Below, in pieces: positions 20,235-27,083 of a stretch of DNA of 27,083 nucleotides. Within the stretch, counting starts at the first letter, position 1, and each line of letters opens with the position of its first letter. A program made the position numbers and the translations under genes. Source of the DNA: an uncultured Candidatus Peribacteria bacterium (GTDB lineage: Bacteria; Patescibacteriota; Gracilibacteria; BD1-5; UBA6164); contig CAYUZH010000004.1 in the NCBI GenBank assembly GCA_964449635.1, positions 1-27,083 of the forward strand, read 5' to 3'. The notes under the pieces are model-generated. The model saw nothing but the letters and a program-made list of their open reading frames with translations, made no database searches and was not told where the DNA came from.

Positions 20235-22892
20235 ATGTCACCTCAAAAACCTTTTGAATGACCATCTGATGACGTTCTTTATCATTTCACAGATAACGAA
20301 CTTGAAGATGCTGCCAAGAAACTCTGAATCGCAGAGGCTGCTGCTACTATTATCTCTCAATGAATAGTAATCGAAAAAATAAAACAAGACCTTGATTCAA
20401 GAACAAGACAAAACTGACTTCCAAAAGAACTTCATGATTTCATCAATTCTCGAAGAGCCAAACATTTATTTCGTATGAAATGAGTTTCTTTTCAAACATG
20501 AAAAGATGATAGATTGGGAGAGAATATTGACAATCTCTGTGCAAATCTTAATCCTGAATCTTCTTATGAAGGAGGCCCTATAAAATACCTTGAGACTATT
20601 CATAATAAATATTTTAATGATAATTCCCCTCTTGGTGATTTCATCATGCGTACTCCCGAGGATTATCTCAAAGTACTCATTTACCAACTCAATCTTACTC
20701 GTATTGAGCAACTTGAAAGATTTTTTCAAGCATTTGAAAAATATAAAGAAAAATTAGAGATATCTTCCGAATGATTTTATAAACGGTGAAGTTGAGAGTT
20801 TTATCATTTACAATACTCTTTTAAAAACCACGTAGAGTTTTTGGCTACTACCATATCTCCCGAACGACTCTACCATATCCTTAATATCTTCAATATTAAA
20901 AATATAGATGATTTCATCACCCTTTTTATAAAAACTCCTTGAATATATCCTCTTCTGGTGGGAGTAGATTTAAATCTTTTAACTTATTTCACTGAAGCTA
21001 ATAAAATAAATACTCTTGAAAAATGCATCAAATTTTTCTGATATGATTGAGATTGAGAACCAGATTCTCTTAAGAGTTTGAAAAATAGAGATCTCAATAA
21101 AAAAGAAGAAACCGACATAAAAAAAATTCTTGCACGTATCAGTGAACTTGGAGAAAAAGCGATTGAAAATACTTTATTTTTATTAAGGTATTTTTGAATT
21201 CACGATATAACATCTCTCTCGGTCATTGATACAAATATGGCAAATATACTTTCTGCATCTTCAGAAGCAAATATATGATATCTCCTCTGACTCTATGGAG
21301 CAAAAAATCTTGAAGAAGTGAAATCTTGTTTACTCCATCCATATATATCTTCCAACATAGAAAGGGTTGATTATAAAAACCTTTTTCAAATACTACAGAT
21401 GATAGGAATCTCAAAAAAAGATCAGTCTCCAATAGCAAAAAAGATAGTAGAAAATTGGTATGATACCGATACTTCCGACACTCTCAAAGAGTTAAAAATC
21501 ACGCTCGAGAAATTCAAGTGAAACATAGGAAATATAGGCCTCTATATTCTCTTTGTATTGAAAGAGAAAAAAGATATTCGAGGAAATATACAAGAACTCA
21601 TCAAAACATTGGAATCTCTTGAAAATGTACTTTCTCATCCAGGAACAAGCGCATATATAGATTTTTCTCGACTTATACAATTGTCTGATTTTATGGGGTG
21701 ATATATCACCTGTTATCTAGCAAAAAAAGTTTTAGAAACTTCCGAGATAGAACAACTTTTGCAATCATGGGAAGAGACGATACAAGAGTATAAACGTGGA
21801 AGTTTTGATAGAGAAAATGAACTTCATATCAATCTAGAATACAAATACTTTAAACAAATTTCTCAAGACGATACTATCGCACAACATATGTGGAGTAAAT
21901 TTACTTTCACTGATTACACCTATATTTTTAGAAGAAATGTCTGAAATAATACAAGTTTTAGAGACAAAGATGCTTATGAACTTGAATGTGTTTCATATGA
22001 AGCAGAACTCTTGAAACAGTATATCTTCCAAGTAAATGAAAAAGCAAAACGTCTTTGAAAAAAACTTATAGTAGTACCAAACCTTACCTATGGGTATCTT
22101 CCACTTTCAGCTATCATACAAGAACTCGAAGGAGAAAGCAATATAGAAATTTGTATCTGACCAAAAGTCGGTTCTACAGAAAGTCATAGCAATATGGAAG
22201 TACTAAATAGAAGTTTATTTCGTTGAAAAAGAACCGATATAATAAACAACCAACCTATGATACTCGTCATAGATGGTACTCAACACCTCGTATCAAGAGA
22301 TGGGGACGGTAAATCTGCACGATATCCTGACGCATATCAATGATATCTCAATCAAGTCATAGCTATAAACTACGCACTTTGATATACTGATCCAAAAAAA
22401 CTTCAAAATGCATATATTTGAAAAACAGAAGAAGATCTCGTCAGACTTTTTGCTACAGAAGAATTCAAAAGAACAAGTGAAATTTATCGTAACCTTATAG
22501 AACAATCACCTCGCAACATGTATAATTTCTGACTCCGGAATACTGCATGATACCCTCTTATAATTCGATGATATAGAAGAGAAATACCAACTACTATACA
22601 ACCTTTGGAAGCATCTGATGTAAATGGTCCTACTCTTATCTTTTGTAATGTTGGTGTATTACACGAAGACCTCCCAGAACAGATTAAGTCCTCTCGTTAT
22701 CAACATATACCTGCATACTTTGATGATAGTGGGAAAATTATACGCTTCGAGTACTGATATTCCTCAACTGGTATCCAGTTTGCAAACAGTATTGAGACAC
22801 ATTTACAAAATTTACAAAACAAAAATAAGAAGTCTCAGCCTCCTCATCCTGCTCTTTTGAGACACAAAATATCTATTACTCATGAAAGTTAA
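20235..22892 (+). CDS. large hypothetical protein, 885 aa (helical repeats plus PRTase-like C-terminal region)
   Basis: A single frame with no TAA/TAG for 2.66 kb that includes ORF-track fragments 20514, 21318 and 21759 (all the same frame). Confidence 0.88.
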
Positions 22893-26482: not shown

Positions 26483-26577
26483 AATAATAAAATAAGGAAA
26501 TAAATAAGGCTTCATATTTATTATACGGAAAAATTAAAAATGAGTGACATCATAAAAATATTTTTAAAAAATATCCC

Positions 26578-26849
26578 ATTTACTACAAGTCAGGTACTCG
26601 CTCAATCATTCCCTTCGAGAATCCCTCTTTTACTAAAAAACAAGGATTTTCTCCTTGTTTTTATTGTATTTTCAAATAGCCCCTGGATGAGGGATTCGCC
26701 GCAAGTCGGGCAACCAAGCACGAAAGACACAAACGTGTCTTTCTCTTCACTTCGTGAAGGCTTTCCCTTCGAATCCCTTTTATACTAAAAAACAAGGATT
26801 TTCTCCTTGTTTTTATTATATTTTCAAATGGCTCGGGATGAGGGATTCG
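26578..26849 (-). repeat. imperfect ~152-bp tandem module downstream of tRNA-Gln (tRNA 3' end, terminator and structured element)
   Basis: 35-nt identity 26631-26665 = 26783-26817; GGATGAGGGATTCG at 26685-26698 and 26836-26849; further decayed matches at 26578-26626. Confidence 0.9.
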
Positions 26850-26902
26850 AACCCCCGATAGGGGATTCAGAGTCCCCGGCCTTACCACTTGGCGAATCCC
26901 GA
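26829..26902 (-). tRNA. tRNA-Gln(CTG), CCA encoded
   Basis: TCGGGAT/ATCCCGA acceptor (U1-A72), GGGGA-CTCTGAA-TCCCC anticodon arm, GGGGG-TTCGAAT-CCCTC T-arm, G73-CCA; 74 nt. Confidence 0.95.
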
Positions 26903-26909
26903 ATACAAT

Positions 26910-26943
26910 ATAAGACCGGTCTTATCAGTAAGACCGGTCTTAT
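26910..26943. repeat. tandem duplicated 14-bp perfect palindrome
   Basis: TAAGACCGGTCTTA at 26911-26924 and 26929-26942, separated by TCAG. Confidence 0.9.
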
Positions 26944-26951
26944 ATATATAA

Positions 26952-27083
26952 TTATTTGATTTCAACAGTAGCTCCGTTTTCTTCAAGTTTCTTTTTCATA
27001 TCTTCAGCATCAGCTTTTGATACGTTTTCTTTAATAACACCTCCGTTATCAGCAAGTCCTTTTGCTTCAACAAGTCCAAGACC
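26952..27083 (-). CDS. rplL: 50S ribosomal protein L7/L12, C-terminal part (5' end outside the window)
   Basis: [46 protein letters not shown]. Confidence 0.95.

What the first reader, a model, noticed from the sequence alone, without database searches (positions are those of the whole stretch)
26690..26778. Branched GC-rich hairpin element built from T-arm-like termini
AGGGATTCG (26690-26698) pairs with CGAATCCCT (26770-26778) and encloses three hairpins: CCG-CAAGT-CGG (26699-26709), GAAAGACAC-AAAC-GTGTCTTTC (26722-26743) and CTTCAC-TTC-GTGAAG (26745-26759). It is roughly 50% GC in a very AT-rich setting, has no anticodon arm, and its closing stem reuses the tRNA T-arm sequence. It is a candidate small structured RNA, a tRNA mimic cut by tRNA-processing nucleases, or a REP-like ssDNA recognition structure.
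Basis: partly seen in the sequence, partly recalled or inferred. Interest (0 to 1): 0.65.

Follow-up and report, generated by a model that had tools for sequence, protein, structure and literature searches.

The report
Structured mini-element behind tRNA genes
The GC-rich hairpin cluster is one slightly decayed copy of a small, protein-less, folded element that sits just behind tRNA genes, copies the tail of its own tRNA, is gained and lost between related bacteria, occurs in three distant phyla and matches no RNA or mobile-element family I could search.

Summary
The stems are real (9-bp closing stem, three inner hairpins; folding z about -4.5). The element belongs on the minus strand, directly 3' of tRNA-Gln(CUG).

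Its "T-arm-like termini" are an antisense copy and a sense copy of that tRNA's T-loop and T-stem 3' half. A degenerate copy of the acceptor 3' strand follows.

It is one of 11 copies in this TGA-recoded Gracilibacteria genome. Each lies behind a different tRNA or the tmRNA gene and ends in that gene's own 3' end, starting at C56.

A covariance model built here finds it in 45 of 96 genomes of the family, at 0-18 copies. It is patchy within genera and often in tandem. One clean filled/empty site lies inside a tRNA operon.

The same core sits behind tRNAs in Omnitrophota and Planctomycetes. Helices covary strongly. No Rfam family matches.

No reverse transcriptase, IS110, TnpB or Y1 transposase tracks it.

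Best reading: a non-coding miniature insertion element anchored at the tRNA T-loop and transcribed with the tRNA. Its mechanism is unknown.

Earlier notes of this scan describe the same family in Omnitrophota and Planctomycetes. The Gracilibacteria occurrence and the three core subtypes are new here.

The parts
26957..27083 (-). 3' end of the upstream gene, rplL-like. Context only.
   Evidence: Reading of the sequence: the minus-strand frame ends with a ribosomal L7/L12-type C-terminus. This rests on my own knowledge of that protein and was not searched.
26908..26945 (-). Perfect 17-bp hairpin between rplL and tRNA-Gln, terminator-like. Context only.
   Evidence: Inverted repeat I2. It gives only weak terminator-type Rfam hits.
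26829..26902 (-). tRNA-Gln(CUG). This is the host tRNA whose 3' end the element copies.
   Evidence: ARAGORN. Rfam tRNA model, 59.1 bits.
26788..26814 (.). Terminator-like hairpin, copy 1, between the tRNA and the element.
26770..26778 (-). 5' arm of the element (AGGGAUUCG on the minus strand). It is the reverse complement of tRNA-Gln positions 56-64. With the following AA it complements U54-U64.
   Evidence: (I13). P1 covariation.
26760..26769 (-). Junction J1 (AAGGGAAAGC). The family consensus is GAA-N-GGAG, and this copy deviates from it.
   Evidence: Alignment A2. Consensus.
26745..26759 (-). Variable hairpin hpA (CUUCAC-GAA-GUGAAG).
   Evidence: All 6 pairs of this helix covary across the family.
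26722..26743 (-). Hairpin P3 of subtype A (GAAAGACAC-GUUU-GUGUCUUUC).
   Evidence: It is near-identical in all 11 copies of this genome.
26698..26715 (-). P4 module (GGUUG-C-CCGAC-UUGC-GGC). The family consensus is GGAUG-N-CCGAC...G-N'-C.
   Evidence: The N:N' pair reads GC12/UA10/CG7/AU1.
26690..26698 (-). 3' arm (CGAAUCCCU), a sense copy of tRNA-Gln C56-U64. It closes P1.
   Evidence: (D5/D6).
26677..26689 (-). Tail CAUCCAGGGGCUA, a degenerate copy of the tRNA-Gln end CAUCCCGAGCCA (acceptor 3' strand, discriminator, CCA).
   Evidence: D5: 88% identity.
26636..26662 (.). Terminator-like hairpin, copy 2. It is part of the 152-bp repeat unit.
   Evidence: (D2: 94% over 62 nt).
26609..26626 (-). 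Stump of a second tandem unit: a 5' arm plus the start of J1 (AGGGAUUCUCGAAGGGAA), then unrelated sequence.
   Evidence: D4, D7. Not detected by model R1.

Best explanation
Window 26677-26783 (minus strand) is one somewhat decayed copy of a family of roughly 105-160-nt, protein-less, structured elements. They live directly 3' of tRNA and tmRNA genes, on the same strand.

Anatomy, 5' to 3':
- A 7-14-nt arm that is the reverse complement of the host tRNA's T-loop and T-stem 3' strand, followed by an invariant GAA.
- A conserved junction (GAA-N-GGAG).
- One or two covarying hairpins.
- The motif GGAUG-N-CCGAC with a small hairpin closed by G-N'-C.
- A sense copy of the host tRNA from exactly C56 to its 3' end, often with some trailer.

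Shown:
- The fold is conserved and covaries.
- The family is multi-copy, forms tandem arrays, and is patchy among close relatives.
- One filled/empty site exists.
- Cores at different tRNAs of one genome are closer to each other than to cores at the same tRNA elsewhere, while the tails are always local.
- Some copies lie between tRNAs of one operon. From that position I infer that these are transcribed with the tRNA precursor; no expression data were available.

Inferred:
- It is a selfish miniature insertion element.
- Its 5' arm selects the target by base pairing with the T-arm.
- Its insertion chemistry joins the last core nucleotide to C56, leaving the tRNA intact and duplicating C56 through the trailer.
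- The enzyme, or ribozyme activity, that does this is unknown.
- The window copy, with its altered junction motifs, degenerate tail and truncated second unit, is probably no longer active.
For: Local anatomy.

Relatives behind different tRNAs, each ending in that tRNA's own 3' end.

Covariation:
- 84.5% of cells are paired, against 64% in shuffles and at most 50% when the partners are slid. The score is 0.514 against 0.185.
- The cross-phylum alignment gives 87.5% against 65%.

Copy number and spread:
- 11 copies in the own genome, set against its 16 tRNAs. Ten lie behind tRNAs or the tmRNA gene; for the C54 copy the upstream sequence is a run of N, so its host gene is not seen.
- 45 of 96 family genomes carry it, at 0-18 copies, patchy within genera.
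- 0 of 140 genomes elsewhere in the class.

Complete genome G023: 20 matches, 19 directly behind a tRNA gene (17 different genes).

Filled versus empty site: G019 against G088, G078 and G085, inside a tRNA-Asp/tRNA-Ala operon.

Other phyla: the same core sits behind tRNAs in Omnitrophota and Planctomycetes. The Gracilibacteria-only model scores 12 of those 13 copies at 35-64 bits, and the copy on L157 at 23.9 bits.

Cores cluster by genome while tails are local.

The window copy scores 65 bits, ninth of the genome's 11 copies.
Against: - No transposase, integrase or reverse transcriptase lies inside or next to the copies I inspected, and none tested tracks the element. Mobility therefore has no identified engine.
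- Only one clean filled/empty pair was obtained. Loss by recombination between the flanking direct repeats would give the same picture as gain.
- G-U pairs are no more frequent than A-C mismatches in Gracilibacteria (41 against 40). The strand and the kind of nucleic acid that folds are not settled.
- The left boundary of the inserted DNA is not conserved between copies.
- Strong cross-phylum conservation of unpaired nucleotides would also fit an RNA that works for the host.
Confidence: 0.55

Rival explanations
1. A host-serving cis-acting RNA: a switch or processing module for the upstream tRNA. The 5' arm can pair either with the tRNA's own T-loop and T-stem 3' half (misfolding it) or with the decoy copy in the element (P1). 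The conserved junction core binds a ligand or protein that decides between the two. New copies would arise by local duplication.
For: - Always co-oriented with and directly behind a tRNA, sometimes inside tRNA operons.
- The invariant GAA after the 5' arm extends complementarity to the tRNA's U54-U55-C56, which the element's own 3' arm lacks.
- A multi-helix junction with highly conserved unpaired nucleotides across three phyla.
- Tandem G-A pairs and a GNRA-like loop in hairpin hpB.
Against: - Only about half of the tRNAs in a genome carry it.
- Half of the genomes of the family have none, including close relatives.
- Intrinsic-terminator-like hairpins often separate it from the tRNA.
- The copy extends through the acceptor strand, the CCA and 2-50 nt of trailer, which a switch does not need.
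- Decayed and truncated copies exist, including this window's.
Confidence: 0.2
2. A footprint or miniature derivative (CIME-like) of integrase-driven islands that use the T-loop sublocation of tRNA genes. The two copies of the tRNA 3' end would be attL and attR, and the conserved core would be the integrase or accessory-factor binding end of the island, perhaps recognised as folded single-stranded DNA as for integron attC or CTX-phi attP.
For: - Direct repeat of the tRNA 3' end starting in the T-loop, also found at tmRNA.
- Tandem arrays.
- One case with 4.1 kb of cargo (a Fic protein plus an AEP-TOTE primase-helicase) between tRNA-Glu and its element copy.
- Two tyrosine recombinases in the genome.
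- No G-U excess.
Against: - No integrase in or beside the copies inspected.
- The interval between repeats is only 100-170 bp in nearly all of the roughly 150 copies.
- The identity boundary is fixed at C56 in three phyla, whereas att identity blocks vary with the element lineage.
- The tail downstream of the core is always that of the local tRNA while cores are shared between loci. An attP-borne tRNA end would leave chimeric tRNAs after a change of target.
- Two exact core patterns found nothing in IMG/VR viral contigs.
Confidence: 0.15
3. A decaying tandem duplicate of tRNA-Gln (a pseudo-tRNA) whose hairpins are incidental.
For: The 152-bp repeat includes the tRNA 3' end and terminator, and the tail is degenerate.
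Against: - The interior shares nothing with tRNA-Gln.
- It matches about 150 elements behind other tRNAs, with covarying helices.
Confidence: 0.02

Closest known systems
attL/attR duplications left by tyrosine-integrase elements that insert in the T-loop sublocation of tRNA and tmRNA genes.
   Same: - Targets tRNA and tmRNA genes.
- Keeps the tRNA intact.
- Leaves a second copy of the tRNA from the T-loop to the 3' end.
- Tandem arrays and occasional cargo between the repeats.
   Different: - No integrase.
- The bounded DNA is only about 100-170 bp.
- The junction is fixed at U55|C56 in three phyla.
- An antisense T-arm copy forms a covarying stem with the sense copy.
- A conserved multi-helix core.
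IS110/IS1111 bridge (seek) RNAs
   Same: A structured non-coding RNA-like module that carries short stretches matching both strands of its DNA target. The specificity could be re-set by a few base changes.
   Different: - No DEDD/IS110 recombinase was found in 5 element-rich genomes.
- The two target-matching stretches cover the same target segment and pair with each other.
- The element is not at the end of a coding IS.
MITEs / PATEs and REP-RAYT repeats
   Same: Short, non-coding, hairpin-rich, multi-copy and patchy between strains. They would have to depend on a trans-acting enzyme.
   Different: - Strict site specificity for tRNA T-loops.
- Target-specific arms rather than fixed terminal repeats.
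- A long, variable duplication of the target.
- The Y1 transposase is absent from 2 of 5 rich genomes, and TnpB is absent from the family.
HDV-like 'theta' ribozymes and other structured RNAs encoded directly behind tRNA genes (recalled from my own knowledge; no paper was read)
   Same: A small structured RNA placed 3' of tRNA genes and transcribed with them.
   Different: - No match to any Rfam ribozyme model.
- Variable distance from the tRNA 3' end.
- Carries a copy of the tRNA tail.

Membership tests
tRNA (Rfam RF00005 / ARAGORN) | Cloverleaf with acceptor stem, D arm, anticodon arm and T arm | tested here: not met
   No call at 26677-26783 by ARAGORN or by the Rfam tRNA model, even at E up to 10. 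Only positions 56-76 of a tRNA are represented.
Any Rfam 15 family | Score at or above the gathering threshold | tested here: not met
   The window, Gracilibacteria relatives and GC-rich relatives give only tRNA, plus a truncated tmRNA hit upstream of one copy. The sub-threshold hits rest on the terminator hairpins.
   The element starts 50 nt after tRNA-Gln, on the same strand. The same holds for 10 of the genome's 11 copies; the sequence upstream of the C54 copy is a run of N.
   CGAAUCCCUCAUCC is identical to tRNA-Gln positions 56-69. The last 7 nt are degenerate, ending CUA instead of CCA.
   A 9-bp P1.
   Present but altered: GAAGGGAAAG and GGUUGCCCGAC. The overall model score is 65 bits, E 4e-14. 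This row was in the seed alignment, so the score is not independent.
Integrative island bounded by attL/attR at a tRNA | An integrase gene and kb-sized DNA between the repeats | tested here: not met
   The two copies of the tRNA-Gln 3' end start 151 bp apart, with no ORF of note between them. The genome's two tyrosine recombinases lie on other contigs.
IS110 bridge RNA | Encoded with a DEDD/IS110 recombinase | tested here: not met
   PF01548 was found in 0 of 5 element-rich genomes, while the control genomes were positive.
IS200/IS605 derivatives (PATE, omega-RNA) and REP/RAYT | A Y1 transposase and/or TnpB in genomes that carry the repeats | tested here: not met
   Y1_Tnp was found in 3 of 5 genomes and not in G103 (12 copies) or G011 (8 copies). 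The TnpB domain was found in 1 of 96 genomes; in that genome the model found no element copy, and the stronger TnpB match contains no TGA codon.
Retron or other retroelement | An associated reverse transcriptase | tested here: not met
   RVT_1 is absent from G023 (18 copies), G011, G105, G019 and G018, and present in many genomes that lack the element.

The most novel reading that the evidence does not exclude
The element is a base-pair-guided, self-inserting nucleic acid. Its 5' arm docks on the T-loop and T-stem of a tRNA gene or transcript. The conserved core then positions its own 3' end to attack the U55-C56 bond. This could be a ribozyme-like strand transfer or a reaction borrowed from a ubiquitous host enzyme. 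Either way it would make a new class of protein-less, programmable mobile element shared by Patescibacteria, Omnitrophota and Planctomycetes.
Probability: 0.15. Interest if true: 0.95.

Novelty: categorically new. Interest (0 to 1): 0.78.

Why it matters
If the reading holds, this is a widespread, undescribed kind of genetic element with these properties:
- It has a conserved folded core of about 90 nt and encodes no protein.
- It settles only behind tRNA and tmRNA genes.
- It tailors two of its own segments to each target and never breaks the target.

It would bear on three questions:
- How tRNA genes act as landing pads.
- Whether target choice by base pairing exists outside CRISPR, OMEGA and bridge-RNA systems.
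- How to annotate the many "partial tRNA" and "att-like" repeats in genomes of uncultured bacteria.

If it instead serves the host, it would be a new type of tRNA-linked regulatory RNA.

For this window, it explains an odd GC-rich island and shows that the two overlapping short ORFs there are not genes.

Tried and rejected
- Known RNA families: searched at gathering and at permissive thresholds on AT-rich and GC-rich copies. Only tRNA and tmRNA matched.
- Hammerhead and HDV-like readings: checked by eye against the junction sequences. The essential core nucleotides or the strand order do not fit. This is my own reasoning, with no tool result beyond the absence of Rfam hits.
- Helper enzymes: IS110, Y1, TnpB, RT and AEP-TOTE were searched and none tracks the element.
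- Empty site for the window's own locus: the same-genus genome G001 lacks an assembled tRNA-Gln locus. The genus g5 comparison was not syntenic enough.
- Viral origin: two exact core patterns found nothing in IMG/VR.
- Literature: five full-text searches found no description. The library is incomplete, so this is weak evidence of novelty.
- Strand test by G-U against A-C counts: inconclusive.
- Coding reading: the ORFs at 26540-26788 (+) and 26661-26888 (-) run across the terminator hairpin and, for the second, into the tRNA gene. I rejected them on that basis and did not check them for homologues.

Full report
**1. The observation**

As RNA it folds to -34.6 kcal/mol on the + strand and -38.0 on the - strand. 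That is 4.4-4.6 standard deviations better than dinucleotide shuffles, and none of 200 shuffles did as well. GC is 0.44-0.45 against 0.23-0.30 in the surrounding spacers.

**2. Local context**

The window is open to translation only if TGA is read as a sense codon. There is an 885-aa frame with 29 TGA codons, against 12 ORFs of 100 aa or more under table 11. The record titles of relatives agree.

On the minus strand the order is as follows:
- The end of an rplL-like gene.
- A perfect hairpin (26908-26945).
- tRNA-Gln(CUG) (26902-26829).
- A terminator-like hairpin (26814-26788).
- The element (26783-26677).
- A second copy of the same terminator (26662-26636).
- An 18-nt stump of a further unit (26626-26609).
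- A secreted Cys-rich ORF.

A 152-bp repeat unit explains this layout (families D2 and D4-D7). Read on the minus strand:
- The element's 3' arm CGAAUCCCU and the next five bases are identical to tRNA-Gln positions 56-69.
- The rest of the tail (…AGGGGCUA) is a degenerate copy of the tRNA's end (…CGAGCCA).
- The 5' arm AGGGAUUCG is the reverse complement of positions 56-64.

So the "T-arm-like termini" are an antisense and a sense copy of the neighbouring tRNA's T-loop and T-stem 3' half.

**3. It is a family**

A BLAST of the locus against 60 relatives gave 85-93% matches to the interior of the element in five other genera. Each match lies behind a different tRNA. Each ends in an exact copy of that tRNA from the T-loop to CCA, and most begin with the matching antisense arm.

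They lie behind these genes:
- tRNA-Thr(GGU), two tRNA-Met, tRNA-Arg(CCU) and tRNA-Leu(GAG).
- tRNA-Ser(GGA), as two tandem copies.
- tRNA-Gln(CUG), which is the window copy.
- The tmRNA gene. Its 3' end is confirmed at E 6e-15.

One further copy, on contig C54, is preceded by a run of N, so its host gene is not seen.

**4. Structure**

Thirty-two copies aligned cleanly (alignment A2). I tested a structure made of these helices:
- P1, the closing stem formed by the two arms.
- A short junction stem.
- Hairpin hpA.
- Hairpin hpB (called P3 in subtype A).
- The split helix P4.

Results:
- 84.5% of cells form standard pairs, against 64.2% in column shuffles (0 of 500 reach it) and 38-50% when partners are slid by 1-3 columns.
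- The covariation score is 0.514 against 0.185.
- Individual pairs are telling. P1 column 11-107 reads UA14/AU12/GC3/CG2. P1 column 13-105 reads CG18/UA14. The P4 pair N:N' reads GC12/UA10/CG7/AU1. The distal P4 pair reads CG16/UA10.

Three core architectures exist:
- Subtype A, as in this window, with the hairpin GAAAGAYAC-GUUU-GURUCUUUC.
- Subtype B, where that hairpin is replaced by one capped with GA-Y-GAAUA-R-GA. The Y and R positions covary.
- Subtype C, a longer form holding both.

Identity with the host tRNA begins at C56, right after GGUU, in every copy that could be set beside its tRNA. It runs through the 3' end and 2-50 nt of trailer.

**5. Distribution**

The covariance model R1 gave these results:
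- 11 copies in the own genome, which has 16 detectable tRNAs.
- Hits in 45 of 96 genomes of the family, with 0-18 copies each. Presence within genera is patchy: 2 of 13, 5 of 12 and 5 of 10.
- None in 140 genomes of other families of the class.

In the complete genome G023 the model gives 20 matches. Nineteen lie directly behind a tRNA gene, covering 17 different genes and including the tRNA with anticodon UCA.

An exact-pattern scan of one genome per species found the same core in Omnitrophota and Planctomycetes MAGs. There too it lies directly behind a co-oriented tRNA, with the arm and tail matching that tRNA. The tRNA genes seen there mostly lack an encoded CCA, and so do their copies. The copy therefore comes from the gene or the precursor, not from mature tRNA. 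Model R1, built from Gracilibacteria only, scores 12 of those 13 copies at 35-64 bits, and the copy on L157 at 23.9 bits. The joint alignment keeps the covariation, at 87.5% paired against 65% in shuffles. That alignment is fitted to the model, which inflates the figure.

Rfam has no family for the element.

Earlier notes of this scan describe the same family in Omnitrophota and Planctomycetes. I reached it independently and re-tested its defining claims. The Gracilibacteria occurrence and the three subtypes are new here.

**6. Evidence that it comes and goes**

In genus g19 the genome G019 reads:
tRNA-Asp, 56 nt, element, 5 nt, tRNA-Ala.

Three congeners read:
tRNA-Asp, 18-22 nt, tRNA-Ala.

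The flanks are about 79% identical between them. This is a clean filled/empty pair. I also infer from it that this copy is transcribed inside a tRNA operon. Other copies likewise sit between tRNAs.

Tandem arrays of two to four units are common.

The core of a copy most resembles another core of the same genome in 36 of 58 cases. Often that other core sits at a different tRNA. In 16 such pairs the cores are 80-94% identical while the 21-nt tails differ at 5-13 positions. Each 5' arm still pairs with its own 3' arm at 6-7 of 7 positions. So the core moves, or is homogenised, between tRNA loci, while the tail is always local.

In one case 4.1 kb of cargo lies between tRNA-Glu(CUC) and its element copy. 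The cargo is a Fic protein, a small protein and an AEP-TOTE primase-helicase. That primase occurs in no other genome of the family, so it is cargo and not a helper.

**7. What drives it**

Nothing I could test:
- IS110 recombinase: 0 of 5 element-rich genomes.
- Y1 transposase: 3 of 5.
- TnpB: 1 of 96 genomes, one in which the model found no element copy; the stronger of its two TnpB matches has no TGA codon.
- Reverse transcriptase: unrelated to element presence. G023 has 18 copies in the family search and no RT.
- Tyrosine recombinases are present, two in this genome, but on other contigs.

G-U pairs do not exceed A-C mismatches in Gracilibacteria (27 against 35 in A2; 41 against 40 in A4). 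They exceed them only mildly in the GC-rich phyla (9 against 3). So I cannot say whether RNA or single-stranded DNA is the folded form.

**8. Reading**

- Most likely (0.55): a non-coding miniature insertion element. Its 5' arm picks the T-arm by base pairing, and its last core nucleotide becomes joined to C56. This leaves an intact tRNA upstream and a duplicated tail downstream. Where it sits in a tRNA operon it is presumably transcribed with the tRNA.
- Rival (0.2): a host-serving switch on tRNA folding. This would use the competition between the tRNA's own 3' half and the decoy copy for the antisense arm.
- Rival (0.15): an integrase-type miniature island, perhaps recognised as folded single-stranded DNA.
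- Refuted: a plain pseudo-tRNA.

The window copy deviates from the consensus in both junction motifs (GGGAAAG for GGAGAG; GGUUG for GGAUG). It has a degenerate tail ending CUA, ranks ninth of the genome's eleven copies, and is followed by a truncated second unit. It is probably a decaying member.

**9. Novelty**

I found no Rfam family and no paper in five full-text searches of an incomplete library.

The nearest known things each share one or two traits and fail defining tests:
- T-loop-class att duplications.
- IS110 bridge RNAs.
- MITE, PATE and REP repeats.
- Structured RNAs encoded behind tRNAs.

I rate the kind as categorically new, with the caveat that its mechanism is inferred only.

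Noticed in passing
window 1-27083: Long ORFs appear only when TGA is read as sense (for example 20235-22892, 885 aa with 29 TGA codons). The genome therefore uses a TGA-recoded code (table 25 or 4).
   Followed up: partly
L120:2373-6713 (G023, record CP060226.1): Between tRNA-Glu(CUC) and a degenerate element copy carrying the Glu tail lie three genes on the opposite strand. They are a Fic/Doc protein, a 142-aa protein and a 721-aa AEP-TOTE primase fused to a helicase. This looks like a conflict-system islet lodged between the direct repeats.
   Followed up: partly
L121:6315-6598; also L154 and L172: The tRNA with anticodon UCA, which ARAGORN labels 'SeC' and which is presumably the UGA-decoding tRNA of these recoded genomes, also carries an element behind it.
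   Followed up: no
L111:1440-1840 (G019): Two identical 171-nt tandem units of a long subtype carry a tRNA-His-like tail (…GCACCCCA). No intact tRNA lies upstream. A short stump (arm plus GAAAGG plus tail) precedes them.
   Followed up: no
window 26908-26945: A perfect 17-bp hairpin made of a doubled palindrome lies between the rplL stop and the tRNA-Gln 5' end. It gives only weak terminator-type Rfam hits (L20_leader 3' part, 27 bits).
   Followed up: no
window 26540-26788 (+) and 26661-26888 (-): Two short ORFs (82 and 75 aa) run across the element, the terminator hairpin and, for the second, part of the tRNA gene. They are very likely spurious.
   Followed up: partly
alignments A2 and A4: Within the helices of the family, G-U pairs are no more frequent than A-C mismatches in Gracilibacteria (41 against 40). 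That is unusual for a structure selected only at the RNA level.
   Followed up: partly
L079:1246-2472 (G000 contig C57): The genome's single reverse transcriptase (408 aa) best matches generic and UG4-type defence RT models. It is not near any element copy.
   Followed up: partly
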